NCBI GenBank assembly: GCA_963693365.1 | Contig: CAVNZM010000010.1 | Span: 1,116,001 to 1,180,000 of the forward strand | DNA: 64,000 nt | Origin: Amoebidium appalachense | Lineage: Eukaryota > Protista > Ichthyosporea | Direction of reading: 5' to 3' | In this document: positions 2,053 through 64,000 of the stretch, in pieces | How the letters are laid out: every line of letters begins with the position of its first letter | Numbering within the stretch: position 1 is the stretch's first letter | Translations under genes and position numbers: made by a program | The notes under the pieces: generated by a model | What the model was told of the DNA's origin: nothing | Seen by the model: the letters and a program-made list of their open reading frames with translations, nothing else | The model's database searches: none

Positions 2053-21442
<19,390 letters not shown>

Positions 21443-43009: not shown

Positions 43010-43109
43010 GATTTAATATTTTCCCCACACTAATGTACAGTAATATACAAGAGGCGACGAGCGCACTGCCCGCCGCAAGTGCCCCGGCCCACTGGCCGGG
43101 GGTGCGGCA

Positions 43110-43352: not shown

Positions 43353-44299
43353 CTGGGCAAAGCATCAGCAAACATCTCCCGGCATCTTTTTCCCGTCTCA
43401 AACCAGTCTGGGACATCCTAAACCCGTAACCCATCCTGAACCATACCCTTTGTAACCGTTATTAGTTAGAGATGACTCCAAGCTATCCCTAACCCGTCCG
43501 GCTTTAGCAGGCGATATTAAAGACATCTCTGTAAGTATGTCCTTAGCATAATATCTGTAACCCGGCGAAACCCTATCCCGTGTTCCATCTGTTTCCTCCC
43601 CCAAGCATATCTTAGAGCCGTCTTTGTTATGTCTTAAACGAATCTATAAAAAGACAATATTTATGAACTTTTACTAAAAAGATATCCCCAGCATATCTGT
43701 AAGCTATCGATCAGCCGTCTACAAGAGCGCTTTGCGATCACCAATATCCATCTTTAATACTACTTTATGTAGTTCAGACGAACATATATGGCATACTTAA
43801 CACCTCTTGAAGAATTTGCAGAGATATATTACAGATATGTTGTGGTTAACCTAAATGTATCCTTACGATGTAGTTATGTAATATGTTATTTCAGTCTAAC
43901 ACGAGTTGTCGACTTTAGGACGTACTAAAAGCAACTCACCGATAGGCTAGGGATATTTTTATTGGTACATAGTGACACAAACAAGATATGCGTGAGACGT
44001 ATTTACGTCATAATATAGATTCATCATCAATTGAGGAAAAGACACAATTAATATACACTTTAGACGGCTTTAGGACGGCCTAACGTTATATATGGTCGCT
44101 CCCATAGATAGAATAATTATATATTCATAGTTCTGGTAAGAGCACCGGAAGATTTCTTGATGCAATTTTAAAGCCATCTTTCAGGATGTTCTAAAAGTCA
44201 CACTAAAAAGACCGTCGTCATCCTTAAAGTCATCTGTTGGATGGCTGGAGGTTGTCGTGATGATATCTTAAACCCCCCCCCCCCCCCCCCCCCCCCCCC

Positions 44300-45003
44300 T
44301 GACATATACTAATCCGTCTCAGCAGATTAGCCTAAGTCTACGATCGAGATCGGGGGGGAGGGGGTGGCCCGGGTCCACAGATCATCAAGATCAAGTCCGG
44401 GGCCTCAAGATAGCTGTACAGCTGCGTGCATCTTGCCTCTGCCGGCGCAGGGCATTGGACCACGTCAGCCGGGACAGCCGACCAATAGAATTCTAATTAG
44501 TGTGTAGGATAGATCGTAGGAGGACTTAGGAATGTGATTGTTCGGGCAGAAGCCCTTTTGTAAGTATTGGCAAGGTTAGATAGTGTTTGTTGCCAAACGT
44601 ATTTATATATTTAGATGTAGAGGAAAGGGGGGGGGGAGGGGGGGGCAGGATAGTATGAAATGTAGATTTAGACTCTGCGGTGCCACTAGGGGGAGGGTGA
44701 GGGGTGAGACATGGATAAATATATTAGTTGAGTAGATCGACTTAGCTCGTGCAGGCGCACGATAAAAGTAGATCGGAATGTTTGGAATGTGGCATCGTAG
44801 GGGGCCAGGTGATGATGATCTTTGAGGGCACGGCCTTGATGGCCTCAGTGGTAACTTAGTGTGATTCCGTACGGATCTAAGTTTGCCCGTCGGAGCCTGG
44901 TCTGAATAAACTTTACCGTTTTTCTGTACACGTTCGTTCCTTTTCGTGTGTGTACACTTAGTAGAGTGCCGCGTCTCTAGTACACATACATTAGGATACG
45001 ACA
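44300..45003 (+). repeat. LTR A (haplotype 1)
   Basis: TG...CA ends, imperfect 14-bp terminal IR (tgacatatactaat / attaggatacgaca), TATA-like tatttatata at ~44600, aataaa at ~44905. Confidence 0.95.
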
Positions 45004-45092
45004 AGCTACACCTTTCTTTTAGTGCGGTTTTTCGCGCTAGGGTAACGCGGTGACAGTTCCTTCTGGGCTGTTGCTACACCTCAAACACACAG

Positions 45093-45123
<31 letters not shown>

Positions 45124-45161
45124 ATAAACACAACCACACGAGTTCGGGCACACACCACACA

Positions 45162-46502
45162 ATGGCTAAGTTTAACGTAGACATGTTCTACGCATTGGCA
45201 GCGGAGGATAGCTCCCTGCACACACAGGTACCACAGGTTCATACACTAGACGTTAGACAGACCACAGCTTTCAGTTTTACACTCAAACACGACTCGGAAA
45301 TACCGAGGTGGCTTAGGACACTCCTAGCTAACACACCCACACTAGTGTTAGACACAAAGAAGGCCACCACTGTGGCGGCCTCGTGCTTAATGATCAAACA
45401 GTGCATCGACCACAAAACAATGGCCGACTTATGCACCCTGATGGAGGAACACCCGTACCGGGCCGAGCAGGCCCCCCAGGTGACGGCTCGTATATACGAG
45501 CAGCAGTACGACGAGGGGAGGGACGAGATGGTGTCCCGGACACTCGGCCAGAAACGTCTGGCCGCACGGTTCATCCCCGACGACGAGGACGAGAACAGCA
45601 CCGACGACGTGGACGGGGAGCTCGAGGCCTTCACACGGCCGGAAAACGAGCTCGAGTATACGGCCCGGCTCGTCGGCCGATACCTGACGGCCGACCGGCG
45701 CCGTACCTTCCGGGCCCAGCTCAGAGAATGGAAGTATACCTTTCCCACTTTAGATATGTCCCCCGTAGAAGCTCGTGCATTCTTTGAGAGGGAATATCGG
45801 GTCTTTGAAGACCTTTGTGAGTTAGCTGGTGACGTGAGTGATAGGGAAAAATTCGAGTTTGCTCGTAAGGCTCTCTCTGTAAACACCGACACTGCACGCA
45901 TGTTTGGGGAGCATGATGATGTAGATGAGGTGGTGTTGCATGTTAAACGTCACTTGCTTGCCATGCACGAGGTGAAGTTCAATAAGAGGGATAAAAAGGA
46001 GGTGATGGAAGTAGACAAGAAAAAGAAGGAGAGTGGACAGAAGGGGGAAAACTTTGAAAGAGAAAAAAGAGGGTGAACAGCCAGATGCACTCACCATGTT
46101 GGTCAAGCAGGTTGCCGAGCTCTCCCAGGCCGTCTTTTCTGGCCGAGGGGGCTTCGGCTTCCGGGGTGGCCGTGGCGGCGACCGGGGTGGACACGGCGGT
46201 CGTGGCCGAGGTGGACGTGGAGGACAACAGCAGCAGTTCACCGAGAGGTTTGCCCCTTATCTTGCTCGTGGTGCTGGGCAGGGTAGAGGGAGGGGTGGAA
46301 ATGGTGGTGAGAGAGGCCGAGGGGGGCAGGGGGGAAGGGGGGGCCGTGGTGCACACAGTGGGCCCCCCAGCATGACCGGGCTCCCGGTTATGCTTTGCGC
46401 CAAGGTTTTGAAGTCCCCCCTGGCCCCTTCTTTGGTGCATGTTACTTTTGTGGCCGGCAAGGGCACTCTGCTGCATATTGCCGTAGTTACAAGAGCTATT
46501 GA
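45162..46502 (+). pseudogene. gag of element X (7-nt insertion at ~46050 plus a further indel near 46360)
   Basis: Nearly identical to the intact gag at 56990-58324. The extra ctttg-containing insertion shifts the frame. Confidence 0.88.
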
Positions 46503-49381
46503 GTTCCGGGGGAGGGGGAAGCTGGGGTCACTGAGGGAGGGGGGGGGGACAGTATCGGTCCCCCCCAGGTTGCAGAGAACCTTCACCCTCCCCCACCCCA
46601 GGTTAAGCTTCCCTTTGCCCCCTCACCGCCCCGATACGTGTGGGAGCCGGGCATCGTCGTGGGTCCTCAAGACAGCGTCGAGGTGGTATGGCATGAATGT
46701 TTGTGGGGTGACTCTACCAAAGGCATGAATGGTGTGAATGTTTTGTGGTTGGGGGAGGTTCCCCAGCCACAAGTGGATGGTCTCAGTGTTTCTTGTCCCA
46801 ACCCGGTGTTTGTTCTCACCACACCGGAGGGGGTTTCTGTGCCATTGTTTCCGGGAGGGGGGGGGACACACACGAGTAAAGGGGGAAGGGGGGGGGAAGG
46901 CACAGACACGTAGAAACACACCACCACAACAACATACGACGGTTGCAGACACACCTACACCCACACACACACCCACACATACACCAAACACACACACACC
47001 ACCCACCCACACATCACACACACACACTCCACCACCACCCACACCACATACACACCCCACCCCACCCGTGCAGGCACCACAGGTAGGTATGTTGCACGTA
47101 GGTATCGAGGGTGTGAGTCTTCGTGGGCAGGGATTGGGTGTGAGTGATGATGTGTTGCTTGAATTGGAGGAGGATTTAGTTGGTTTTAGCCGGCATTATA
47201 TAGACGTATGGTTAGCTGATGGTAAGTTGAAGGCTGTTGCTTTGCTCGATGGAGGGGCTCAGGTTAATTGTGTGCATGCTTCGTTTATTCGTCGTTTTAA
47301 TCAGGCCGGGGGGGAAATTCCTATTTTAGATGCCTCTAGCACAGCCTTAGGTAGTGCTAATAATAGCAGTATGTCTGTTGAAGGTGTTTGTGTGTTGCCG
47401 TGTGAGATAGGTGGCCAGGCTATGCATATTGCTTGTTATGTGGTTAAGGATTTAGCTCAAAGTGTTTTGTTGGGAGCCCCATTTTTCCGTAGACATGTGA
47501 ATGCTTTGTTTGAACGTACGAATGTTTTAGAATTGCAGTCCGGCGTTAAAATTAAAACCCATGATGGGCTCGACGGTTATCAGTCTGGTGCTAGAACGGT
47601 AGCTGAAGTAGTAATCGAGCCTTATCAGTGCCAAACGGTACGTGTCCGGGCCGGCAATCATGTTAGGATAGGGGATTTAGGGGTTTTTACTCCGAAAACC
47701 CCATTTCAGGAGGTGGCCCAATGGACCCTTAGTAGGGTATGGCCGGATAAGACATTAGAAATAGAATTAGTGAATCCGGGCATCGAGCCTATAGTGATTA
47801 GGTCAGGTGTTTCCGTCGGTAGTTTCACTAATGAGATTGGTAGTATAGAGGTCTCTCTTATTACCCAAAAGGAGGATGCCGGCTCGAAGGGTGACTCAGG
47901 AGGAGGGGGAACAACTTTATTTAACGTTAGCCACCAAAATGTCACCCGACACGATGGGGGGGGGGACCGGGACAGCACCGGTCCCACTCCCCCGACCCCC
48001 AAGAGGAAGGAGGGTCACCCCGGGTGTGAGAATGTGCAGGCAAGGGGGGAGGGTGTTGGTCTAACCCGTGGATCTGACGGGTTAACCAACACCGTGGGGG
48101 GCAGGGTGGCCACAGACCTGGCCCCCCACATACATGCACTAACTCATCAGGAATTGCCCGGGGGCATTGGTGTGCCGGGGGGAGGGGGGGGTGCTAAGGG
48201 TGACCGCCTATATCCGGAGGTACCTCAACCTCACCCCGAGCAGCACCGATGTAATACAGGAGGTGAAATGTTAAGTGGCACTCCGGTGAATAAGGATGCA
48301 TCCACTTGTGATGGGGGTAACCCGGAGTTAGTATTGCCGTTTGGTATGAAGGAGGGGGATTGGACGGTAGAACAGAAAAAATTGCTAGCTAAGTTATTTG
48401 ATAGGACTCGGTTTGCATTTCTGGCCGATGATAACGAAGTAGGCTTCGTTAAAGGGTTTGAAATGCAGATCGACACAGGTGATAATAGGCCGGTAGTGAT
48501 GCCTAGCTATAGAATGGAGCAGTATAAATTGTCGGATGCGCTAATAATAGTGAGTGATATGTTAAAAAAGGGTCATGTGGAGCATAGTTCGAGTCCGTGG
48601 AGAAGTCCGGTGCTATTGGTTAAGAAGCCCGACGGGTCTTGGCGCCTAGTGAACGATTACAGGGCTCTGAATCGGATCACTAAGGCAGACCAATGGCCTC
48701 TCCCTAACATAGACGAGCAGCTTTCACAGCTGCACGGCTATACTCACTTTGCTAAACTTGATTTAAAAGCAGCTTTTTGGCAGATAAGGTTGGAGGAGAG
48801 CAGCAAGGAGAAGACTGCCTTTGCACTGGGTGACCAGCTGTTCCAGTACAAGGTGGTGCCGATGGGTTTGCTCTCCTCTCCAGCTATGTTGTGCCGGGTA
48901 ATGTATAAAATTCTCCACCCTCATTTGGATGTATGCCACCCTTATTTGGATGATGTTTTAATTAAAGGTAGGTCATTTGAGGAGTTAGTTAATAATTGTG
49001 AAAAAGTATTTTTAGCTTTGGGTGAGTCTGGTCTTCGTATTAGCGGTAGCAAGACTGTGATTGGTGTGCCGGAGGTTAAGTTTTTAGGTCATATTGTGTC
49101 TAGTAATGGTCTTTCCCCTGATCCGGAGAAAATCCGGGCCATAGTTGAGTGGCCCCGTCCTCAGACTGTCACTCAACTAAGGCAATTTTTAGGTTTAACT
49201 AATTATCTTCGTCGTTATATTAAGGACTATAGTATGCTTGCTTTGCCGTTAACTAGTCAGACGGGGGGGGAGAAGAAGAATAGAATAGATTGGAATGTTG
49301 ATGCTGTTTCTGCTTTCGAAAAGCTTAAGTTAGCTTTGCAGTCTTCGAGTATGCTTGTTCATCCTGATTTTTCGGCCGGGG
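46503..49381 (+). CDS. pol 5' part of element X: aspartic protease, dUTPase-like beta segment, reverse transcriptase
   Basis: ALLDGGAQVN protease motif; SSPWRSPVLLVKKPDGSWRLVNDYRALN; LDLKAAFWQ; PYLDDVLI. One indel near 46860-46900 falls in G-runs. Confidence 0.92.
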
Positions 49382-49585
49382 GGGGGCCAGGTGATGATGA
49401 TCTTGTAGGGCACGGCCTTGATGGCCTCAGTCGTAACTTAGACTCAATCCGTACGGATCTAAGTTTGCCCGTCGGAGCCTGGTCTTAATAAACTTTACCG
49501 TTTTTCTGTACACGTTCGTTCCTTTTCGTGTGTGTACACTTAGTAGAGTGCCGCGTCTCTAGTACACATACATTAGGATACGACA
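49382..49585 (+). repeat. 3' fragment (~205 bp) of a haplotype-2 LTR inside pol
   Basis: Matches the 3' end of LTR B (cttgtaggg, cagtcgtaacttagactcaatcc). Ends ...GACA and is followed by gggatgttt, the continuation of RNase H. Confidence 0.93.
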
Positions 49586-51931
49586 GGGATGTTTAAAGTT
49601 CGGTGTGATGCAAGTAAGGTTGCTGAGGGGGCCGTGTTATATCAAGTGCAGGAGGGGCAGGATAGAGTGATTGCTTATGCTAGTCGTTCATTTAGTAAAA
49701 GTGAACGTAGATATAGCAATCCAGAGAGAGAGTCCCATGCTATCTTTTGGGCAGTCTCACAGGCATGGAGGTACATACTCGCAGGCAGGACGTTTGAGGT
49801 CTACACCGACCACAAGCCCTGCCTAGCCATGGCCGGCACCACTCGTCTGGTCAACGAGAGGATGCAGAAGTGGGCCGCGGCTCTCGGTGAGTTCTCCTAT
49901 AAATTGTTTTATGCCAAGGGTGAAACAATGGTTGACTGTGATGCTCTCTCTCGTGCTGCTTATATTTTGTTTGACGAAGAGAAGGAGGGGGAGGGGGGGG
50001 GATAGTGAGAGACGGGGGGGGAGGGGGGGAAGGGGGGGGGAGAGTGAGCAGAAAGGAATAGATGCTGTGTCTGTGGATGTGTCTTCTTGGGTTCCGGGGT
50101 TGCTTGCTTATAAGTGTAGGAGAGGGGGGGGAGGTATTTGTCAGTGTCTGAGGTCGGGACCGAGTCTCATGGCTCGGCCCCTGCCTTAGCACCTACGGCT
50201 TTGATCTTAGCTCAGGAGGAAGATGTGTTGATTGGTCTGGTTAAGAATTATTTAAAGGGGCCGGTTGATTCGATTAAATTTACAAATAAAAGGCAGATGA
50301 TTAAGGTAGCTAAGTTAGCAAAAATGTGTCAGGTAGAGCAGGATTTAGTTTATCATTGTTCTGGGCCAGACGGACACCGAGTTTGGGTCCCGACGGCACT
50401 TGTGCCTGAGGTTTTGCATATGGTGCATGAGCATCCCATGGCTGGTCATTTAGGTGTAAATAGGACGTTGCTTCGTGTTAATCGTTCGTATTTTTGGCCG
50501 GGTATGAGTAGGGAGGTGAGGGATTATGTGTTGTCATGCATGCATTGTCAGGAAAGGAATGAGAGTCCCCACTCTCGTTCCCGCCCGTCGTTTATTAGGG
50601 ATTTTAATGTTCGTATGTTTGAAAGGGTAGCAGTGGATGTGGTCGGTCCTTTTAATTTTACGGTTGAGGGTAACACTGTTCTTGTTACCGTCACCGATGT
50701 GGCCACTCGTTGGGTTGAAGTTTTTCCTCTCCCCACTGCTAATGCCGTTTTGTTTGCTCGTATTTTTGTGGATGAAATTTGTCTTAGGTTTGGTTGTCCT
50801 CGTGTTTTGTTAACGGATAGGAGTCGTGTGTTTTTAAATCAGTTGGTGTCGGAGGTGTGTAAAATTTTAAGGGTAGCTCATATCACTACGTCTGCATATC
50901 ACCCTCAAGCAAATGCCATCTCTGAACGTGTGCATGCAGTGTTTCAGAAGTCCTTTGGCAAAATGGTGGATGTGGAGGCTAATGATTGGGATCATATGTC
51001 TAGGTTTATTGCTCATTCATATAATTCTACCCCTCATGCTGTGACTGGTTTTTCTCCGTTTTATTTGGTCTATGGGCAGGAGGCTATTAGTTTGTTAGAT
51101 ACGGCACTTTTGCCGATGGGGGGGGCTGACCGACTAACTTATCCCCACTGGACTGAGTTCCGGGAGCAGCTACTAACCCGGGCCCGGGCTGCACGTGATG
51201 CAGCTCTGGCCCGTACACAGCAGGCACAGGCACGTACAGACGTGTCCACACGTCCGTTACGTGAATTTGCCGAGGGTACTTTAGTTTTAATTAGGGATCA
51301 TACTAGGAAGAAGAGATATAAGCAGGAGCAGGAAGGTAAGGGTGAAGGTGAAGGTCTTCGTAAGTATGGTAAGAAATGGTTGCCTCTTTTTATCGGTCCG
51401 TATAAAATAGTGGCTAGGTTAGGTCCGACGGAATATAAGGTGCAGAGGTTAGATAATGAGAGTGATGTTAGATTTTATAATGTAGATGATATAAAGGAAT
51501 ATTATGATAGGGCCCTTAGGGTTAAACGGCCGGAGGGCCGTCGAGTGTTAGATGCATTCACCCCCGACTATGACGGGTCGGTGGATGTATCGGAGGCTGC
51601 AGTAGATAAAATTATGGATAAAAAGGTTATCGAAGGTAAGGAAGGTAAGGTAAATTATTATTTAATTCGTTTTGAGGGAGGTTATCAGGAAGATCAGTGG
51701 TTGCCTGAGTTTCATTTGGATTGCCCGTTTTCTATTCGTGCTTATGAGGCTAGATTAGTGCAGAGGGAGTTGCCTAGTGCTCCCTCTCGGCCAAAGAGAG
51801 TTATTCCTCAGTTTAATCGTGGTGTGAAAAAGTCGGTGGGGGAGGGGGCCGGGGGGGGGAGTGATGCAAATACACGTAGACACACGGGGGGAGGGGGAGG
51901 GGAGGGGGAGGGAGACCGAGGAGGAGTGTGA
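49586..51931 (+). CDS. RNase H + integrase + chromodomain of nested element Y (frame break in G-runs at ~49990-50040)
   Basis: CDASK..GAVL, YSNPERE, YTDHKP; HHCC (HEHPMAGH...CMHC); DDE core (VDVVGP, TDRS, SER); GPY motif; chromodomain VDKIMDK...YLIRFEG...QWLPE..LDCP. Confidence 0.92.
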
Positions 51932-52134
51932 ACGTAGTCGTAGGAATTTAATTTATTATCATAGGTGTCTCCGTAGGTATCAAGCTTATGGTGTAGATTA
52001 ATTTATTATTTTTCTTCGTAATTTATTTAATTTAATTTTTTTTTAGGAGACTGATTAGTCTATGTCTTTTTAGGGGGTGTTAGATGTAATGTGACTGAGG
52101 TGGGACTCAGCTTTTCCGGGGGCCGGGGGGGAGT

Positions 52135-52850
52135 TGACATATACTAATCCGTCTCAGCAGATTAGCCTAAGTCTACGATCGAGATCGGGGGGGGGGGGGG
52201 GGGGGGGTGGCCCGGGTCCACAGATCATCAAGATCAAGTCCGGGGCCTCAAGATAGCTGTACAGCTGCGTGCATCTTGCCTCTGCCGGCGCAGGGCATTG
52301 GACCACGTCAGCCGGGACAGCCGTCCAATAGAATTCTAATTAGTGTGTAGGATAGATCGTAGGAGGACTTAGGAATGTCATTGTTCGGGCAGAAGCCCTT
52401 TTGTAAGGATTGGCAAGGTTTGATAGTATATGTTGCCAAACGTATTTATATATTTAGATGTAGAGGAAAGGGGGGGGAGGGAGGGGGGGGGAGGATAGTA
52501 TGAAATGTAGATTTAGACTCTGCGGTGCCACTAGGGGGAGGGTGAGGGGTGAGACTTGGATAAATATATTAGTTGAGTAGATCGACTTAGCTCGTGCAGG
52601 CGCACGATAAAAGTAGATCGGAATGTTAATGGAATGTGGCATCGTAGGGGGCCAGGTGATGATGATCTTGTAGGGCACGGCCTTGATGGCCTCAGTCGTA
52701 ACTTAGACTCAATCCGTACGGATCTAAGTTTGCCCGTCGGAGCCTGGTCTTAATAAACTTTACCGTTTTTCTGTACACGTTCGTTCCTTTTCGTGTGTGT
52801 ACACTTAGTAGAGTGCCGCGTCTCTAGTACACATACATTAGGATACGACA
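52135..52850 (+). repeat. LTR B (haplotype 2), 3' LTR of nested element Y
   Basis: Preceded by the PPT ggggggagt and followed by gggatgttt rather than host DNA. Confidence 0.95.
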
Positions 52851-55139
52851 GGGATGTTTAAAGTTCGGTGTGATGCAAGTAAGGTTGCTGAGGGGGCCGT
52901 GTTATATCAAGTGCAGGAGGGGCAGGATAGAGTGATTGCTTATGCTAGTCGTTCATTTAGTAAAAGTGAACGTAGATATAGCAATCCAGAGAGAGAGTCC
53001 CATGCTATCTTTTGGGCAGTCTCACAGGCATGGAGGTACATACTCGCAGGCAGGACGTTTGAGGTCTACACCGACCACAAGCCCTGCCTAGCCATGGCCG
53101 GCACCACTCGTCTGGTCAACGAGAGGATGCAGAAGTGGGCCGCGGCTCTCGGTGAGTTCTCCTATAAATTGTTTTATGCCAAGGGTGAAACAATGGTTGA
53201 CTGTGATGCTCTCTCTCGTGCTGCTTATATTTTGTTTGACGAAGAGAAGGAGGGGGAGGGGGGGGATAGTGAGAGACGGGGGGGGGGAGGGGGGGGGGAA
53301 GGGGGGGGAGAGTGAGCAGAAAGGAATAGATGCTGTGTCTGTGGATGTGTCTTCTTGGGTTCCGGGGTTGCTTGCTTATAAGTGTAGGAGAGGGGGGGGG
53401 AGGTATTTGTCAGTGTCTGAGGTCGGGACCGAGTCTCATGGCTCGGCCCCTGCCTTAGCACCTACGGCTTTGATCTTAGCTCAGGAGGAAGATGTGTTGA
53501 TTGGTCTGGTTAAGAATTATTTAAAGGGGCCGGTTGATTCGATTAAATTTAAAAATAAAAGGCAGATGATTAAGGTAGCTAAGTTAGCAAAAATGTGTCA
53601 GGTAGAGCAGGATTTAGTTTATCATTGTTCTGGGCCAGACGGACACCGAGTTTGGGTCCCGACGGCACTTGTGCCTGAGGTTTTGCATATGGTGCATGAG
53701 CATCCCATGGCTGGTCATTTAGGTGTAAATAGGACGTTGCTTCGTGTTAATCGTTCGTATTTTTGGCCGGGTATGAGTAGGGAGGTGAGGGATTATGTGT
53801 TGTCATGCATGCATTGTCAGGAAAGGAATGAGAGTCCCCACTCTCGTTCCCGCCCGTCGTTTATTAGGGATTTTAATGTTCGTATGTTTGAAAGGGTAGC
53901 AGTGGATGTGGTCGGTCCTTTTAATTCTACGGTTGAGGGTAACACTGTTCTTGTTACCGTCACCGATGTGGCCACTCGTTGGGTTGAAGTTTCGATTATC
54001 CTCTCCCCACTGCTAATGCCGTTTTGTTTGCTCGTATTTTTGTGGATGAAATTTGTCTTAGGTTTGGTTGTCCTCGTGTTTTGTTAACGGATAGGAGTCG
54101 TGTGTTTTTAAATCAGTTGGTGTCGGAGGTGTGTAAAATTTTAAGGGTAGCTCATATCACTACGTCTGCATATCACCCTCAAGCAAATGCCATCGCTGAA
54201 CGTGTGCATGCCGTGTTTCAGAAGTCCTTTGGCAAAATGGTGGATGTGGAGGCTAATGATTGGGATCATATGTCTCGGTTTTTTGCTCATTCATATAATT
54301 CTACCCCTCATGCTGTGACTGGTTTTTCTCCGTTTTATTTGGTCTATGGGCAGGAGGCTATTAGTTTGTTAGATACGGCACTTTTGCCGATGGGGGGGGC
54401 TGACCGACTAACTTATCCCCACTGGACTGAGTTCCGGGAGCAGCTACTAACCCGGGCCCGGGCTGCACGTGATGCAGCTCTGGCCCGTACACAGCAGGCA
54501 CAGACACGGGCAGACGTGTCCACACGTCCGTTACGTGAATTTGCCGAGGGTACTTTAGTTTTAATTAGGGATCATACTAGGAAAAAGAGATATAAGCAGG
54601 AGCAGGAAGGTAAGGGTGAAGGTGAAGGTCTTCGTAAGTATGGTAAGAAATGGTTGCCTCTTTTTATCGGTCCGTATAAAATAGTGGCTAGGTTAGGTCC
54701 GACGGAATATAAGGTGCAGAGGTTAGATAATGAGAGTGATGTTAGATTTTATAATGTAGATGATATAAAGGAATATTATGATAGGGCCCTTAGGGTTAAA
54801 CGGCCGGAGGGCCGTCGAGTGTTAGATGCATTCACCCCCGACTATGACGGGTCGGTGGATGTATCGGAGGCTGCAGTAGATAAAATTATGGATAAAAAGG
54901 TTATCGAAGGTAAGGAAGGTAAGGTAAATTATTATTTAATTCGTTTTGAGGGAGGTTATCAGGAAGATCAGTGGTTGCCTGAGTTTCATTTGGATTGCCC
55001 GTTTTCTATTCGTGCTTATGAGGCTAGATTAGTGCAGAGGGAGTTGCCTAGTGCTCCCTCTAGGCCAAAGAGAGTTATTCCTCAGTTTAATCGTGGTGTG
55101 AAAAAGTCGGTGGGGGGAGGGGGCCGGGGGGGGGAGTGA
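52851..55139 (+). pseudogene. RNase H + integrase + chromodomain of element X (net +5-nt insertion at ~53993)
   Basis: Same domains with private variants (KFKNK, FNSTV, AIAER, RFFAH, QTRAD) that differ from the copies at 50138 and 61682. Confidence 0.9.
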
Positions 55140-55404
55140 TGCAAATACACGTAGACACACGGGGGGAGGGGGAGGGGGGGAGGAGACCGAGGAGGAGTGT
55201 GAACGTAGTCGTAGGAATTTAATTTATTATCATAGGTGTCTCCGTAGGTATCAAGCTTATGGTGTAGATTAATTTATTATTTTTCTTCGTAATTTATTTA
55301 ATTTAATTTTTTTAGGAGACTGATTAGTCTATGTCTTTTTAGGGGGTGTTAGATGTAATGTGACTGAGGTGGGACTCAGCTTTTCCGGGGGCCGGGGGGG
55401 GAGT

Positions 55405-56113
55405 TGACATATACTAATCCGTCTCAGCAGATTAGCCTAAGTCTACGATCGAGATCGGGGGGGGGGGGGGGGGTGGCCCGGGTCCACAGATCATCAAGAT
55501 CAAGTCCGGGGCCTCAAGATAGCTGTACAGCTGCGTGCATCTTGCCTCTGCCGGCGCAGGGCATTGGACCACGTCAGCCGGGACAGCCGACCAATAGAAT
55601 TCTAATTAGTGTGTAGGATAGATCGTAGGAGGACTTAGGAATGTGATTGTTCGGGCAGAAGCCCTTTTGTAAGTATTGGCAAGGTTAGATAGTGTTTGTT
55701 GCCAAACGTATTTATATATTTAGATGTAGAGGAAAGGGGGGGAGGGGAGGGGGGGGAGGATAGTATGAAATGTAGATTTAGACTCTGCGGTGCCACTAGG
55801 GGGAGGGTGAGGGGGTGAGACATGGATAAATATATTAGTTGAGTAGATCGACTTAGCTCGTGCAGGCGCACGATAAAAGTAGATCGGAATGTTTGGAATG
55901 TGGCATCGTAGGGGGCCAGGTGATGATGATCTTTGAGGGCACGGCCTTGATGGCCTCAGTGGTAACTTAGTGTGATTCCGTACGGATCTAAGTTTGCCCG
56001 TCGGAGCCTGGTCTGAATAAACTTTACCGTTTTTCTGTACACGTTCGTTCCTTTTCGTGTGTGTACACTTAGTAGAGTGCCGCGTCTCTAGTACACATAC
56101 ATTAGGATACGAC
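55405..56113 (+). repeat. LTR C (haplotype 1), 3' LTR of element X; terminal A missing
   Basis: Same haplotype as LTR A. Ends ...ggatacgac, then ccc, then TGAC of LTR D. Confidence 0.93.
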
Positions 56114-56116
56114 CCC

Positions 56117-56831
56117 TGACATATACTAATCCGTCTCAGCAGATTAGCCTAAGTCTACGATCGAGATCGGGGGGGGGGGGGGGGGGGGGGTGGCCCGGGT
56201 CCACAGATCATCAAGATCAAGTCCGGGGCCTCAAGATAGCTGTACAGCTGCGTGCATCTTGCCTCTGCCGGCGCAGGGCATTGGACCACGTCAGCCGGGA
56301 CAGCCGTCCAATAGAATTCTAATTAGTGTGTAGGATAGATCGTAGGAGGACTTAGGAATGTGATTGTTCGGGCAGAAGCCCTTTTGTAAGGATTGGCAAG
56401 GTTTGATAGTATATGTTGCCAAACGTATTTATATATTTAGATGTAGAGGAAAGGGGGGGAGGGAGGGGGGGAGGATAGTATGAAATGTAGATTTAGACTC
56501 TGCGGTGCCACTAGGGGGAGGGGTGAGGGGTGAGACTTGGATAAATATATTAGTTGAGTAGATCGACTTAGCTCGTGCAGGCGCACGATAAAAGTAGATC
56601 GGAATGTTAATGGAATGTGGCATCGTAGGGGGCCAGGTGATGATGATCTTGTAGGGCACGGCCTTGATGGCCTCAGTCGTAACTTAGACTCAATCCGTAC
56701 GGATCTAAGTTTGCCCGTCGGAGCCTGGTCTTAATAAACTTTACCGTTTTTCTGTACACGTTCGTTCCTTTTCGTGTGTGTACACTTAGTAGAGTGCCGC
56801 GTCTCTAGTACACATACATTAGGATACGACA
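56117..56831 (+). repeat. LTR D (haplotype 2)
   Basis: TG...CA ends; near-identical to LTR B. Confidence 0.95.
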
Positions 56832-56920
56832 AGCTACACCTTTCTTTTAGTGCGGTTTTTCGCGCTAGGGTAACGCGGTGACAGTTCCTTCTGGGCTGTT
56901 GCTACACCTCAAACACACAG

Positions 56921-56951
<31 letters not shown>

Positions 56952-56989
56952 ATAAACACAACCACACGAGTTAGGGCACACACCACACA

Positions 56990-58324
56990 ATGGCTAAGTT
57001 TAACGTAGACATGTTCTACGCATTGGCAGCGGAGGATAGCTCCCTGCACACACAGGTACCACAGGTTCATACACTAGACGTTAGACAGACCACAGCTTTC
57101 AGTTTTACACTCAAACACGACTCGGAAATACCTAGGTGGCTTAGGACACTCCTAGCTAACACACCCACACTAGTGTTAGACACAAAGAAGGCCCCCACTG
57201 TGGCGGCCTCGTGCTTAATGATCAAACAGTGCATCGACCACAAAACAATGGCCGACTTATGCACCCTGATGGAGGAGCACCCGTACCGGGCCGAGCAGGC
57301 CCCCCAGGTGACGGCTCGTATATACGAGCAGCAGTACGACGAGGGGAGGGACGAGATGGTGTCCCGGACACTCGGCCAGAAACGTCTGGCCGCACGGTTC
57401 ATCCCCGACGACGAGGACGAGAACAGCACCGACGACGTGGACGGGGAGCTCGAGGCCTTCACACGGCCGGAAAACGAGCTCGAGTATACGGCCCGGCTCG
57501 TCGGCCGATACCTGACGGCCGACCGGCGCCGTACCTTCCGGGCCCAGCTCAGAGAATGGAAGTATACCTTTCCCACTTTAGATATGTCCCCCGTAGAAGC
57601 TCGTGCATTCTTTGAGAGGGAATATCGGGTCTTTGAAGACCTTTGTGAGTTAGCTGGTGACGTGAGTGATAGGGAAAAATTCGAGTTTGCTCGTAAGGCT
57701 CTCTCTGTAAACACAGACACTGCACGCATGTTTGGGGAGCATGATGATGTAGATGAGGTGGTGTTGCATGTTAAACGTCACTTGCTTGCCATGCACGAGG
57801 TGAAGTTCAATAAGAGGGATAAAAAGGAGGTGATGGAAGTAGACAAGAAAAAGAAGGAGAGTGGACAGAAGGGGGAAAAAGAGAAAAAAGAGGGTGAACA
57901 GCCAGATGCACTCACCATGTTGGTCAAGCAGGTTGCCGAGCTCTCCCAGGCCGTCTTTTCTGGCCGAGGGGGCTTCGGCTTCCGGGGTGGCCGTGGCGGC
58001 GACCGGGGTGGACACGGCGGTCGTGGCCGAGGTGGACGTGGAGGACAACAGCAGCAGTTCACCGAGAGGTTTGCCCCTTATCTTGCTCGTGGTGGTGGGC
58101 AGGGTAGAGGGAGGGGTGGAAATGGTGGTGAGAGAGGCCGAGGGGGGCAGGGGGGAAGGGGGGGCCGTGGTGCACACGGTGGGCCCCCCCAGCATGACCG
58201 GGCTCCCGGTTATGCTTTGCGCCAAGGTTTTGAAGTCCCCCCTGGCCCCTTCTTTGGTGCATGTTACTTTTGTGGCCGGCAAGGGCACTCTGCTGCATAT
58301 TGCCGTAGTTACAAGAGCTATTGA
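56990..58324 (+). CDS. gag: Gag (444 aa) with RGG-rich region and CCHC zinc knuckle
   Basis: Intact ORF ending CYFCGRQGHSAAYC-RSYKSY-TGA. Confidence 0.92.
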   Translation: MAKFNVDMFYALAAEDSSLHTQVPQVHTLDVRQTTAFSFTLKHDSEIPRWLRTLLANTPTLVLDTKKAPTVAASCLMIKQCIDHKTMADLCTLMEEHPYRAEQAPQVTARIYEQQYDEGRDEMVSRTLGQKRLAARFIPDDEDENSTDDVDGELEAFTRPENELEYTARLVGRYLTADRRRTFRAQLREWKYTFPTLDMSPVEARAFFEREYRVFEDLCELAGDVSDREKFEFARKALSVNTDTARMFGEHDDVDEVVLHVKRHLLAMHEVKFNKRDKKEVMEVDKKKKESGQKGEKEKKEGEQPDALTMLVKQVAELSQAVFSGRGGFGFRGGRGGDRGGHGGRGRGGRGGQQQQFTERFAPYLARGGGQGRGRGGNGGERGRGGQGGRGGRGAHGGPPQHDRAPGYALRQGFEVPPGPFFGACYFCGRQGHSAAYCRSYKSY

Positions 58325-61300
58325 GTTCCGGGGGAGGGGGAAGCTGGGGTCACTGAGGGAGGGGGGGGGGACAGTATCGGTCCCCCCCAGGTTGCAGAGA
58401 ACCTTCACCCTCCCCCACCCCAGGTTAAGCTTCCCTTTGCCCCCTCACCGCCCCGATACGTGTGGGAGCCGGGCATCGTCGTGGGTCCTCAAGACAGCGT
58501 CGAGGTGGTATGGCATGAATGTTTGTGGGGTGACTCTACCAAAGGTATGAATGGTGTGAATGTTTTGTGGTTGGGGGAGGTTCCCCAGCCACAAGTGGAT
58601 GGTCTCAGTGTTTCTTGTCCCAACCCGGTGTTTGTTCTAACCACACCGGAGGGGGTTTCTGTGCCATTGTTTCCGGGAGGGGGGGGGACACACACGAGTA
58701 AAGGGGGAAGGGGGGGGAAGGCACAGACACATAGAAACACACCACCACAACAACATACGACGGTTGCAGACACACCTACACCCACACACACACCCACACA
58801 TACACCACACACACACACACCACCCACCCACACATCACACACACACACTCCACCACCACCCACATCACATACACACCCCACCCCACCCGTGCAGGCACCA
58901 CAGGTAGGTATGTTGCACGTAGGTATCGAGGGTGTGAGTCTTCGTGGGCAGGGATTGGGAGTGAGTGATGATGTGTTGCTTGAATTGGAGGAGGATTTAG
59001 TTGGTTTTAGCCGGCATTATATAGACGTATGGTTAGCTGATGGTAAGTTGAAGGCTGTTGCTTTGCTCGATGGAGGGGCTCAGGTTAATTGTGTGCATGC
59101 TTCGTTTATTCGTCGTTTTAATCAGGCCGGGGGGGAAATTCCTATATTAGATGCTTCTAGCACAGCCTTAGGTAGTGCTAATAATAGTAGTATGTCTGTG
59201 GAAGGTGTTTGTGTGTTGCCGTGTGAGATAGGTGGCCAGGCTATGCATATTGCTTGTTATGTGGTTAAGGATTTAGCTCAAAGTGTTTTGTTGGGAGCCC
59301 CATTTTTCCGTAGACATGTGAATGCTTTGTTTGAACGTACGAATGTTTTAGAATTGCAGTCCGGCGTTAAAATTAAAACCCATGATGGGCTCGACGGTTA
59401 TCAGTCTGGTGCTAGAACGGTAGCTGAAGTAGTAATCGAGCCTTATCAGTGCCAAACGGTACGTGTCCGGGCCGGCAATCATGTTAGGATAGGGGATTTA
59501 GGGGTTTTTACTCCGAAAACCCCATTTCAGGAGGTGGCCCAATGGACCCTTAGTAGGGTATGGCCGGATAAGACAATAGAAATAGAATTAGTGAATCCGG
59601 GCATCGAGCCTATAGTGATTAGGTCAGGTGTTTCCGTCGGTAGTTTCACTAATGAGATTGGTAGTATAGAGGTCTCTCTTATTACCCAAAAGGAGGATGC
59701 CGGCTCGAAGGGTGACTCAGGAGGAGGGGGAACAACTTTATTTAACGTTAGCCACCAAAATGTCACCCGACACGATGGGGGGGGGGACCGGGACAGCACC
59801 GGTCCCACTCCCCCGACCCCCAAGAGGAAGGAGGGTCACCCCGGGTGTGAGAATGTGCAGGCAAGGGGGGAGGGTGTTGGTCTAACCCGTGGATCTGACG
59901 GGTTAACCAACACCGTGGGGGGCAGGGTGGCCACAGACCTGGCCCCCCACATACATGCACTAACTCATCAGGAATTGCCCGGGGGCATTGGTGTGCCGGG
60001 GGGAGGGGGGGGGTGCTAAGGGTGACCGCCTATATCCGGAGGTACCTCAACCTCACCCCGAGCAGCACCGATGTAATACAGGAGGTGAAATGTTAAGTGG
60101 CACTCCGGTGAATAAGGATGCATCCACTTGTGATGGGGGTAACCCGGAGTTAGTATTGCCGTTTGGTATGAAGGAGGGGGATTGGACGGTAGAACAGAAA
60201 AAATTGCTAGCTAAGTTTATTTGATAGGACTCGGTTTGCATTTCTGGCCGATGATAACGAAGTAGGCTTCGTTAAAGGGTTTGAAATGCAGATCGACACA
60301 GGTGATAATAGGCCGGTAGTGATGCCTAGCTATAGAATGGAGCAGTATAAATTGTCGGATGCGCTAATAATAGTGAGTGATATGTTAAAAAAGGGTCATG
60401 TGGAGCATAGTTCGAGTCCGTGGAGAAGTCCGGTGCTATTGGTTAAGAAGCCCGACGGGTCTTGGCGCCTAGTGAACGATTACAGGGCTCTGAATCGGAT
60501 CACTAAGGCAGACCAATGGCCTCTCCCTAACATAGACGAGCAGCTTTCACAGCTGCACGGCTATACTCACTTTGCTAAACTTGATTTAAAAGCAGCTTTT
60601 TGGCAGATAAGGTTGGAGGAGAGCAGCAAGGAGAAGACTGCCTTTGCACTGGGTGACCAGCTGTTCCAGTACAAGGTGGTGCCGATGGGTTTGCTCTCCT
60701 CTCCAGCTATGTTGTGCCGGGTAATGTATAAAATTCTCCACCCTCATTTGGATGTATGCCACCCTTATTTGGATGATGTTTTAATTAAAGGTAGGTCATT
60801 TGAGGAGTTAGTTAATAATTGTGAAAAAGTATTTTTAGCTTTGGGTGAGTCTGGTCTTCGTATTAGCGGTAGCAAGACTGTGATTGGTGTGCCGGAGGTT
60901 AAGTTTTTAGGTCATATTGTGTCTAGTAATGGTCTTTCCCCTGATCCGGAGAAAATCCGGGCCATAGTTGAGTGGCCCCGTCCTCAGACTGTCACTCAAC
61001 TAAGGCAATTTTTAGGTTTAACTAATTATCTTCGTCGTTATATTAAGGACTATAGTATGCTTGCTTTGCCGTTAACTAGTCAGACGGGGGGGAGAAGAAG
61101 AATAGAATAGATTGGAATGTTGATGCTGTTTCTGCTTTCGAAAAGCTTAAGTTAGCTTTGCAGTCTTCGAGTATGCTTGTTCATCCTGATTTTTCGGCCG
61201 GGGGGGGGATGTTTAAAGTTCGGTGCGATGCAAGTAAGGTTGCTGAGGGGGCCGTGTTATATCAAGTGCAGGAGGGGCAGGATAGAGTGATTGCTTATGC

Positions 61301-63478
61301 TAGTCGTTCATTTAGTAAAAGTGAACGTAGATATAGCAATCCGGAGAGAGAGTCCCATGCTATCTTTTGGGCAGTCTCACAGGCATGGAGGTATATACTC
61401 GCAGGCAGGACGTTTGAGGTCTACACCGACCACAAGCCCTGCCTAGCCATGGCCGGCACCACTCGTCTGGTCAACGAGAGGATGCAGAAGTGGGCCGCGG
61501 CTCTCGGTGAGTTCTCCTATAAATTGTTTTATGCCAAGGGTGAAACAATGGTCGACTGTGATGCTCTCTCTCGTGCTGCTTATATTTTGTTTGAAGAAGA
61601 GAAGGAGGGGGAGGGGGGGATAGTGAGAGACGGGGGGGAGGGGGGGAAGGGGGGGCGAGTGAGCAGAAAGGAATAGATGCTGTGTCTGTGGATGTGTCTT
61701 CTTGGGTTCCGGGGTTGCTTGCTTATAAGTGTAGGAGAGGGGGGGGGAGGTATTTGTCGGTGTCTGAGGTCGGGACCGAGTCTCATGGCTCGGCCCCTGC
61801 CTTAGCACCTACGGCTTTGATCTTAGCTCAGGAGGAAGATGTGTTGATTGGTCTGGTTAAGAATTATTTAAAGGGGCCGGTTGATTCGATTAAATTTACA
61901 AATAAAAGGCAGATGATTAAGGTAGCTAAGTTAGCAAAAATGTGTCAGGTAGAGCAGGATTTAGTTTATCATTGTTCTGGGCCAGACGGACACCGAGTTT
62001 GGGTCCCGACGGCACTTGTGCCTGAGGTTTTGCATATGGTGCATGAGCATCCCATGGCTGGTCATTTAGGTGTAAATAGGACGTTGCTTCGTGTTAATCG
62101 TTCGTATTTTTGGCCGGGTATGAGTAGGGAGGTGAGGGATTATGTGTTGTCATGCATGCATTGTCAGGAAAGGAATGAGAGTCCCCACTCTCGTTCCCGC
62201 CCGTCGTTTATTAGGGATTTTAATGTTCGTATGTTTGAAAGGGTAGCAGTGGATGTGGTCGGTCCTTTTAATTTTACGGTTGAGGGTAACACTGTTCTTG
62301 TTACCGTCACCGATGTGGCCACTCGTTGGGTTGAAGTTTTTCCTCTCCCCACTGCTAATGCCGTTTTGTTTGCTCGTATTTTTGTGGATGAAATTTGTCT
62401 TAGGTTTGGTTGTCCTCGTGTTTTGTTAACGGATAGGAGTCGTGTGTTTTTAAATCAGTTGGTGTCGGAGGTGTGTAAAATTTTAAGGGTAGCTCATATC
62501 ACTACGTCTGCATATCACCCTCAAGCAAATGCCATCTCTGAACGTGTGCATGCAGTGTTTCAGAAGTCCTTTGGCAAAATGGTGGATGTGGAGGCTAATG
62601 ATTGGGATCATATGTCTAGGTTTATTGCTCATTCATATAATTCTACCCCTCATGCTGTGACTGGTTTTTCTCCGTTTTATTTGGTCTATGGGCAGGAGGC
62701 TATTAGTTTGTTAGATACGGCACTTTTGCCGATGGGGGGGGCTGACCGACTAACTTATCCCCACTGGACTGAGTTCCGGGAGCAGCTACTAACCCGGGCC
62801 CGGGCTGCACGTGATGCAGCTCTGGCCCGTACACAGCAGGCACAGGCACGTACAGACGTGTCCACACGTCCGTTACGTGAATTTGCCGAGGGTACTTTAG
62901 TTTTAATTAGGGATCATACTAGGAAGAAGAGATATAAGCAGGAGCAGGAAGGTAAGGGTGAAGGTGAAGGTCTTCGTAAGTATGGTAAGAAATGGTTGCC
63001 TCTTTTTATCGGTCCGTATAAAATAGTGGCTAGGTTAGGTCCGACGGAATATAAGGTGCAGAGGTTAGATAATGAGAGTGATGTTAGATTTTATAATGTA
63101 GATGATATAAAGGAATATTATGATAGGGCCCTTAGGGTTAAACGGCCGGAGGGCCGTCGAGTGTTAGATGCATTCACCCCCGACTATGACGGGTCGGTGG
63201 ATGTATCGGAGGCTGCAGTAGATAAAATTATGGATAAAAAGGTTATCGAAGGTAAGGAAGGTAAGGTAAATTATTATTTAATTCGTTTTGAGGGAGGTTA
63301 TCAGGAAGATCAGTGGTTGCCTGAGTTTCATTTGGATTGCCCGTTTTCTATTTGTGCTTATGAGGCTAGATTAGTGCAGAGGGAGTTGCCTAGTGCTCCC
63401 TCTCGGCCAAAGAGAGTTATTCCTCAGTTTAATCGTGGTGTGAAAAAGTCGGTGGGGGAGGGGGCCGGGGGGGAGTGA
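58325..63478 (+). CDS. pol: Pol polyprotein PR-RT-RH-IN-chromodomain, starting in the gag frame; broken by single-base indels mostly in homopolymers
   Basis: ORF pieces 58460-60019, 59988-60224, 60286-61110, 61158-61676 and 61682-63478 cover all domains. The breaks at ~60010, ~60218, ~61090 and ~61620-61650 fall in or next to G/T runs. Confidence 0.92.
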
Positions 63479-63746
63479 TGCAAATACACGTAGACACACG
63501 GGGGGAGGGGGAGGGAGGGGGAGGAGACCGAGGAGGAGTGTGAACGTAGTCGTAGGAATTTAATTTATTATCATAGGTGTCTCCGTAGGTATCAAGCTTA
63601 TGGTGTAGATTAATTTATTATTTTTCTTCGTAATTTATTTAATTTAATTTTTTTTAGGAGACTGATTAGTCTATGTCTTTTTAGGGGGTGTTAGATGTAA
63701 TGTGACTGAGGTGGGACTCAGCTTTTCCGGGGGCCGGGGGGGGAGT

Positions 63747-64000
63747 TGACATATACTAATCCGTCTCAGCAGATTAGCCTAAGTCTACGATCGAGATCGG
63801 GGGGGGGGGGGGGGGGGGGGTGGCCCGGGTCCACAGATCATCAAGATCAAGTCCGGGGCCTCAAGATAGCTGTACAGCTGCGTGCATCTTGCCTCTGCCG
63901 GCGCAGGGCATTGGACCACGTCAGCCGGGACAGCCGTCCAATAGAATTCTAATTAGTGTGTAGGATAGATCGTAGGAGGACTTAGGAATGTCATTGTTCG
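63747..64000 (+). repeat. LTR E (haplotype 2), partial
   Basis: TGACATATACT start immediately after the PPT. Confidence 0.95.

What the first reader, a model, noticed from the sequence alone, without database searches (positions are those of the whole stretch)
44272..64000. Gypsy chromodomain retrotransposon that appears to target G/C homopolymer runs and re-inserts at one nucleotide in its own pol
Seen in sequence: all four visible outer junctions touch G/C runs. LTR A follows a ~27-nt C-tract, LTR D follows 'ccc' directly after LTR C, and two LTR 3' ends (49585 and 52850) join exactly the same base, GACA|gggatgttt. That base is in the G9 run of the RT-RNase H linker, which is uninterrupted in element W at 61200-61210. 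LTR and internal haplotypes sort the pieces into nested order: X 5' part, a haplotype-2 LTR fragment, a haplotype-2 RH-IN, LTR B, the X-type RH-IN, then LTR C. The two RH-IN segments differ by several substitutions, so this is not a plain duplication. Inference: the integrase prefers poly(G)/poly(C) DNA or G-quadruplex/i-motif structure, an abundant mostly intronic target in this genome. I know of target-specific LTR families for Pol III genes, (TA)n and heterochromatin, but not for G-tracts.
Basis: partly seen in the sequence, partly recalled or inferred. Interest (0 to 1): 0.85.

Follow-up and report, generated by a model that had tools for sequence, protein, structure and literature searches.

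The report
Nested retrotransposons; repeated junction was copied
Several young copies of one jumping gene are stacked inside and beside each other; the apparent double hit at one base is most likely a single insertion later duplicated by recombination or by the assembler, and a liking for G/C runs is possible but not strict, because other copies sit in ordinary sequence.

Summary
Two independent hits on one base are not supported. The middle RH-IN segment matches the last segment at its first 7 informative sites, then matches element W at 11 of the next 12. It has no private substitution outside homopolymer runs (permutation p=0.0006). This is the signature of one unequal crossover that copied the junction; an assembly chimera would look the same. 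That leaves two target sites and three junctions, all touching G/C runs, against a background of about 1-19% depending on run length. Contigs from other public runs show both kinds of flank: several without a run (X1, X2, X7) and a few with C or G runs (X5, X7). Strict G/C-tract targeting is therefore contradicted. A several-fold bias remains open (about 50%), and insertion mostly into tracts is about 20%. The element sits in an unnamed chromodomain clade with Skipper-like traits.

The parts
44273..44299 (+). C27 tract, left flank of element X
44300..45003 (+). LTR A (haplotype 1), TG...CA, 5' LTR of X
45004..45022 (+). Post-LTR pyrimidine-rich motif with no TGG primer-binding signature; no complement found inside the LTR; same in W at 56832
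45162..49386 (+). X gag (zinc knuckle), in-frame TGA, then PR and RT up to the G9 run; haplotype 1 to 47755, identical to W from 47756
49378..49386 (+). G9 run joined to the LTR's internal G5; inferred microhomology deletion junction
49382..49585 (+). LTR fragment F (haplotype 2, last 204 bp), ends GACA|GGG
49586..52134 (+). Segment M: RH-IN-chromodomain-3' UTR-PPT; mosaic, N type then W type
50143..50283 (+). Interval of the N-to-W haplotype switch in M (inferred crossover)
51599..51754 (+). Chromodomain at the integrase C-terminus; first aromatic cage position is Ala
52135..52850 (+). LTR B (haplotype 2), ends GACA|GGG
52851..55404 (+). Segment N: RH-IN 3' half of X (haplotype 1)
55405..56113 (+). 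LTR C (haplotype 1), terminal A missing
56114..56116 (+). CCC between LTR C and LTR D; probable remnant of the C tract or of X's target duplication
56117..56831 (+). LTR D (haplotype 2), 5' LTR of W
56832..63746 (+). W internal region: gag, TGA, PR-RT-RH-IN-chromodomain; reading frame shifts at homopolymers
61200..61208 (+). Uninterrupted G9 at the start of the RNase H domain in W (empty site)
63747..64000 (+). LTR E (haplotype 2), cut by the window end; right junction of W not visible

Best explanation
This is a nest of near-identical young copies of a chromodomain Ty3/Gypsy retrotransposon in which one haplotype-2 copy likely integrated once at the edge of the G9 run in X's pol, and the resulting GACA|GGG junction was then likely duplicated by unequal crossing-over. 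Shown: the domain content, two haplotypes, two identical junctions, the single-switch mosaic of M and the W-identical RT part of X. Inferred steps: (1) X and W integrated in the same C tract, a few bases apart, in either order. (2) A W-like copy, Y, integrated in X after G6 of the G9 run. (3) Recombination between X's and Y's gag-pol after 47755 removed the intervening part. (4) An unequal crossover between X's and Y's RH-IN within 50143-50283 duplicated the 3265-bp RH-IN-LTR unit together with its junction. (5) A deletion between the G9 run and the LTR's internal G5 left fragment F. The family probably has a partial preference for joining its LTR ends next to G (G or C runs, or G...C target-duplication ends), on top of clustering in repeats, but it also inserts in ordinary sequence.
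For:: outside G-run lengths, M has no substitution that it shares with neither N nor W. Of 19 informative sites or blocks, the order is 7 N-type, 10 W-type, 1 N-type, 1 W-type (max-chi permutation p=0.00056, 200,000 shuffles). N differs from W along its whole length (7 sites in the first 633 columns, 12 after), so N is the unrecombined X half. The DNA right after both junctions is X type; an independent hit into Y would be followed by Y-type DNA. X and W have 18 substitutions in the first 2753 internal bases and 0 in the last 1632. Both carry C at 49227, where the four runs show almost only T. The G9|CCAGG join matches the LTR's G5. Flanks without runs: X1 has 3 right flanks whose agreement (0.58) equals that of unrelated host 30-mers (0.56). 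X2 shows 2 left flanks without a run. Of X7's 6 non-C left contigs, at most one is a long G run by simulation. Flanks with runs, in runs where X's private alleles are not seen (table 3): X5 has 2 contigs with at least 16 C before TGACA and one low-depth contig joining the LTR end through G's into an LTR G-run; X7 has 2 contigs matching CCCC before TGACA.
Against: No read or contig was seen that spans 49.3-56.2 kb. No listed piece bridges the C-CCC-D junction in 4 runs (table cut), so the arrangement itself is unconfirmed and could be an assembly chimera. The model needs three rearrangements after the insertion. The missing terminal A of LTR C is unexplained. No target-site duplication could be read on both sides of any copy. 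Visible flanks are fewer than a crude model expects: 3 of about 24 in X1, and 2 of about 13-22 assumed copies in X2 (P 1e-5 to 0.2 depending on assumptions). That could mean most young copies do sit in runs.
Confidence: 0.55

Rival explanations
1. The repeated junction and the mosaic segments are an assembly chimera: the assembler switched between near-identical tandem copies (X and Y or W) and wrote the RH-IN-LTR unit twice. There is still only one real integration junction.
For: The copies are 98-99% identical. Every copy has frameshifting length differences in homopolymers, as error-prone long-read consensus would give. B shares the column-246 allele with E, and M's 3' part differs from W at one substitution site. 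No listed piece bridges 56113-56117 in 4 runs.
Against: A chimera does not readily create the novel G9|LTR-G5 join or the 5-bp insertion in N. The absence of bridging pieces is weak evidence: the table was cut and these runs appear to lack X.
Confidence: 0.2
2. One reading: the integrase targets G/C homopolymers or G4/i-motif DNA so strongly that two separate copies integrated at the same base of the family's own pol.
For: All three distinct integrase-type junctions in the window read CA|GGG on the strand of the joined end. Independent C-run left flanks appear in X5 and X7. Most junctions are invisible in contigs.
Against: It needs Y to be, by coincidence, a mosaic that matches N at all 7 sites right after the junction. 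W has 22 G/C runs of 7 or more, so run targeting alone would not pick one base twice. Flanks without runs are seen in X1, X2 and X7.
Confidence: 0.07
3. The junction arose by auto-integration: a recombinant cDNA inserted its own 3' LTR end at the G9 edge and formed an RH-IN-LTR circle. The circle recombined into X as a dimer, and one unit was then deleted by microhomology.
For: A deletion-type auto-integration circle would be exactly the M+B unit with a GACA|GGG junction (general retroelement knowledge, recalled). One X5 contig at depth 5 joins the exact LTR end to an LTR G-run.
Against: It needs more steps and does not explain why X's RT part is W type.
Confidence: 0.1
4. Separate question, target choice only: there is no real run preference. 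The contacts reflect a genome full of G/C runs, clustering in repeat-rich chromatin, and the common weak G...C outer-base bias of 5-bp target duplications.
For: In host sequence 10% of positions have 3 or more G or C on one side, and 19% touch a run of 3 or more. The window holds only two target sites. Most visible flanks elsewhere lack runs. In plants, 5-bp duplications have A/C/G on the left and C/G/T on the right, and Ty3/gypsy families nest in their own family (PMC6911290, section 8 and passages read).
Against: A rough pooled count gives 3 left flanks with 4 or more C among about 13-16, against 2.7% expected (P 0.005-0.015). The count is post hoc, and 19 of 36 loose-end rows were hidden. 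Contig simplification should work against seeing run flanks.
Confidence: 0.45

Closest known systems
Ty3/Gypsy (Metaviridae) LTR retrotransposons; Ty3 RT is the best solved-structure match
   Same: TG...CA LTRs, zinc knuckle, PR-RT-RH-IN order, purine tract before the 3' LTR; RT matches the Ty3-G polyprotein (7q5b) at E=1e-42.
   Different: No TGG primer-binding signature. No sign of Ty3's fixed position at Pol III genes. It lies in a separate clade of unnamed environmental sequences (52-68% RT identity, against 49% or less for the other listed hits).
Dictyostelid Skipper elements (PMC5006619; passages and section 6 part 1 read)
   Same: Chromodomain after the GPY/F motif, a polypyrimidine stretch in place of the primer-binding site, clustering among other retroelements. 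The loss of the first aromatic cage residue resembles Skipper-2 (group II).
   Different: No Skipper sequence came up in any search, so kinship is untested. Skipper-2 sits downstream of tRNA genes, which was not examined here.
Nested and auto-inserted plant LTR retrotransposons (PMC6911290)
   Same: Insertion into copies of the same family; weak, non-strict target motifs.
   Different: That study found the 3' UTR preferred and coding regions avoided, whereas here the nested hit is in pol. The passages read do not mention homopolymer runs.
Retroviral integration near G4 and other non-B DNA (PMC9962126, passages; PMC9692945, listing only)
   Same: Precedent for a statistical, non-strict bias toward G4-forming DNA. 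Foamy virus sites are enriched within 50 bp of G4, and HIV-1 integrase is reported to bind G4.
   Different: These are proximity biases in retroviruses, not insertion into a homopolymer by an LTR retrotransposon.

Membership tests
Ty3/Gypsy LTR retrotransposon | Direct LTRs starting TG and ending CA | tested here: met
   (LTR C lacks the last A)
Ty3/Gypsy LTR retrotransposon | pol order PR-RT-RH-IN | tested here: met
   RVT_1 1.8e-32, RT_RNaseH 2e-29, Integrase_H2C2 8e-23, rve 6.5e-10; protease 1.2e-4, below the curated cut-off
Ty3/Gypsy LTR retrotransposon | Purine tract before the 3' LTR | tested here: met
   G-rich tract before LTRs B, C and E
Ty3/Gypsy LTR retrotransposon | Canonical TGG tRNA primer-binding site (usual, not universal) | tested here: not met
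   pyrimidine-rich motif instead; no complement in the LTR
Ty3/Gypsy LTR retrotransposon | 4-6 bp target-site duplication | tested here: inconclusive
   X lies in a homopolymer, Y's left junction is lost, W's right junction is beyond the window
Chromovirus | Chromodomain at the integrase C-terminus after GPY/F | tested here: met
   Pfam Chromo E=1.8e-4 (21.8 bits, under the 25.1 cut-off); HP1-family chromodomain phmmer E=4.6e-7; most close relatives carry PF00385
Chromovirus | RT falls inside the chromovirus clade | tested here: inconclusive
   In a 43-row midpoint-rooted tree the query and 8 relatives form their own clade (100/97), apart from the plant-labelled hits; no named chromovirus reference was in the tree
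Skipper | Chromodomain plus polypyrimidine stretch replacing the primer-binding site | tested here: met
   compared with the text of PMC5006619 (figures not seen)
Skipper | RT-RH-IN kinship with dictyostelid Skipper | not tested
   no Skipper sequence was returned or 29
Strictly target-specific LTR element (Ty3 or DGLT-A type) | Nearly all copies at one kind of target | tested here: not met
   flanks without G/C runs in X1, X2 and X7; visible flanks are a biased minority
Strictly target-specific LTR element (Ty3 or DGLT-A type) | Independent repeat insertions at the same position | tested here: not met
   the repeated junction is explained by one crossover

The most novel reading that the evidence does not exclude
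An unnamed clade of chromodomain Ty3/Gypsy elements whose young copies go mostly into poly(G)/poly(C) tracts, joining the LTR end 5' of a G run. The tracts act as abundant landing sites in this genome, and the flanks without runs seen in contigs are the assemblable minority or older copies. My literature searches (four multi-term searches, each 0 papers) found no such LTR family described.
Probability: 0.2. Interest if true: 0.75.

Novelty: new member of a known kind. Interest (0 to 1): 0.35.

Why it matters
As it stands this is a clear example of how nested young retrotransposon copies, or their assembly, can create the look of repeated site-specific insertion. Haplotype order along the duplicated unit exposes it. 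If a strong G/C-tract bias were shown, it would be a new kind of target choice for an LTR integrase. It would also be a tractable test of whether G-run DNA or G-quadruplexes guide integration, which for retroviruses rests on proximity statistics.

Tried and rejected
No whole genome is held, so the genome-wide flank count could not be run. Exact LTR-terminus patterns found 0 matches in metagenome contigs, viral contigs and genome contigs. The search for related loci found no relative in metagenome contigs (28 pattern hits, none confirmed) or viral contigs (3 hits, none confirmed). No earlier scan notes exist for this genome or this LTR, and the two word hits concern TpA erasure and do not bear on this finding. 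Tf1-like self-priming: no complement of the post-LTR motif inside the LTR. A readthrough signal after the gag TGA folds no better than shuffles (z=-0.15). The host was not identified: a host kinase gave only generic eukaryotic kinase clusters. X14 and X11 gave no LTR-end flank rows. The deficit of visible flanks was modelled, but it depends on assumed copy number and on contig simplification and filtering, so it is not counted as proof. A 2-LTR-circle origin for the C-CCC-D junction was considered. It is disfavoured because C and D are different haplotypes and the filler matches neither element end. Literature: searches returned 0 papers; some searches returned listings. Multi-term exact searches of an open-access library cannot show that a G-tract-targeting family is not in print.
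Full report
Observation. The stretch 44300-64000 holds near-identical copies of one LTR retrotransposon. In order: C27 tract; LTR A; gag-PR-RT of element X up to a G9 run; a 204-bp LTR 3' fragment F; RH-IN segment M; LTR B; RH-IN segment N; LTR C, missing its last A; CCC; LTR D; full internal region W; LTR E, cut by the window end. F and B both end GACA|GGGATG, the base after G6 of the G9 run that is intact in W at 61200-61208. LTRs A and C form one haplotype and B, D, E and F the other. No whole genome is held, and the host eukaryote was not identified.

What the element is. Pfam finds RT, RNase H, the integrase zinc finger and core, and weaker protease, zinc knuckle and chromodomain hits. 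The chromodomain matches HP1-family structures at E=4.6e-7 but has Ala at the first aromatic cage position. RT is closest to Ty3 among solved structures. Eight unnamed environmental proteins are 52-68% identical in RT, seven of them with a precomputed chromodomain, while all other listed hits are 49% or less. In a tree of the query plus 42 of the 120 listed hits (the 8 closest and 34 picked by hand), these nine form a clade at 100/97, apart from the plant-labelled hits. No named chromovirus was included. There is no TGG primer-binding site; a pyrimidine-rich motif stands there, as described for dictyostelid Skipper (PMC5006619, passages and section 6 part 1 read, figures and supplements not seen). 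gag and pol share a frame and are separated by one TGA in both X and W.

The repeated junction. I aligned M, N and the matching part of W. I dropped columns in G or T runs, where length and phase vary, and merged adjacent changes, which left 19 informative sites. M agrees with N at the first 7, with W at the next 10, then N, then W, and has no private substitution among them (permutation p=0.00056). N differs from W throughout (7 plus 12 sites), at about the rate of X's 5' half, so N is X's own 3' half and M is an N-to-W recombinant with a switch in 50143-50283. The DNA following both junctions is therefore X type. One unequal crossover between X's RH-IN and that of a W-like copy Y nested in X explains the identical junction and the mosaic together. 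Two independent hits would need the mosaic as an extra coincidence. X's RT part is also W type (0 substitutions in 1632 bp, about 11 expected), and the G9|F join uses a G5 microhomology, so the nest has been rearranged repeatedly. An assembler switching between copies would leave the same mosaic. I saw no read spanning the region, and no listed piece bridges C-CCC-D in four runs (table cut).

G/C runs in the window. Three distinct integrase-type junctions remain, at two target sites: the C tract (X and W) and the G9 edge (Y). All read CA|GGG on the strand of the joined end. The CCC before D is expected from X's own duplication in a C tract, so W counts only in that it landed within a few bases of X. 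In host sequence a random junction touches a run of 27 or more 2.8% of the time and a run of 9 or more 6.3%; inside the element, a run of 9 or more 1.1%. This exceeds chance but is a small, post hoc sample.

Other copies. Twenty of 22 listed public runs hold most of the element, all as contigs; six were laid, and only 18 of 270 and 17 of 36 loose-end rows were shown. X's private internal alleles are not seen in X5 or X7 (for example 45449, 46274, 47755), so their junctions are probably other insertions. Against strict targeting: X1 has 3 right flanks whose consensus starts G-C-C with agreement 0.58, like unrelated host sequence (0.56). X2 shows 2 left flanks without a run; one is a single contig, and one I read by hand out of a two-contig consensus using the PPT sequence. 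X7's 6 contigs with a non-C base before TGACA include at most one long G run by simulation. For a bias: X5 has 2 contigs with 16 or more C before TGACA, possibly one site, and one contig at depth 5 joining the exact LTR end through G's into an LTR G-run. X7 has 2 contigs matching CCCC before TGACA. A rough pool of 3 in 13-16 left flanks with 4 or more C, against 2.7%, gives P 0.005-0.015, with hidden rows and aligner end effects uncontrolled. By depth, which the tool warns is no copy number, X1 has about 24 copies but shows 3 right flanks. In X2, four contigs account for all depth at the LTR end; the two that run into long flanks each carry an LTR variant. A crude model expects more visible flanks, which fits hidden run flanks but equally nesting in other repeats or contig simplification.

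Comparison. Same-family nesting and weak palindromic target motifs are known in plants (PMC6911290, passages and section 8 read). Microsatellites as landing sites and chromodomain targeting of heterochromatin are reviewed in PMC12477314 (passages). A statistical bias toward G4 DNA is reported for retroviruses (PMC9962126, passages). Four multi-term searches for a G-tract-targeting LTR family returned no papers, which does not prove absence. Auto-integration circles are recalled knowledge, not from a call.

Verdict. This is a new member of a known kind. The double hit at one nucleotide is most likely one event copied (in vivo 0.55, assembly 0.2, auto-integration circle 0.1, independent hits 0.07). 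Strict G/C-run targeting is contradicted. A bias of three-fold or more is about even odds, and insertion mostly into tracts about 0.2. Interest 0.35; 0.75 if the strong form were shown.

Noticed in passing
window 58322-58324 and 46500-46502: gag ends in a single TGA followed in frame by the protease-pol reading frame in both X and W, which suggests stop-codon readthrough. A 9-bp G:C hairpin lies about 40 nt downstream but is not better than shuffles.
   Followed up: partly
window 41795-43012 (-): 405-aa stop-to-stop ORF with a weak phage-integrase SAM-like hit (E=7e-4) and a motif resembling a tyrosine recombinase; probably a DIRS- or Crypton-type element 1.3 kb left of the nest.
   Followed up: partly
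window 44105-44221: The flank left of the C tract is at high depth in X7. One X7 contig leaves it at 44221 into sequence containing the reverse complement of the 9-nt motif that follows the element's 5' LTR. Unexplained; it may be a shared primer-related motif of another element.
   Followed up: no
window 56089 rows: X5 and X7 hold a diverged LTR subfamily whose end is followed by GACA or CACA, possibly an insertion next to a (CA)n repeat.
   Followed up: no
window 60216, 61085, 61612 and equivalents in X, M and N: Every copy has frameshifting length differences in G or T runs; W's pol is split over three frames. These are either long-read consensus errors or real slippage.
   Followed up: partly
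window 53994-53998: 5-bp insertion in N's integrase core that shifts the frame.
   Followed up: no
window 1-44272: Host sequence is extreme in G/C homopolymers (249 runs of 6 or more, up to 55 nt) and (CA)n repeats, with short ankyrin-like exons and a long ORF at 16065-19160 ending in a protein kinase domain.
   Followed up: partly
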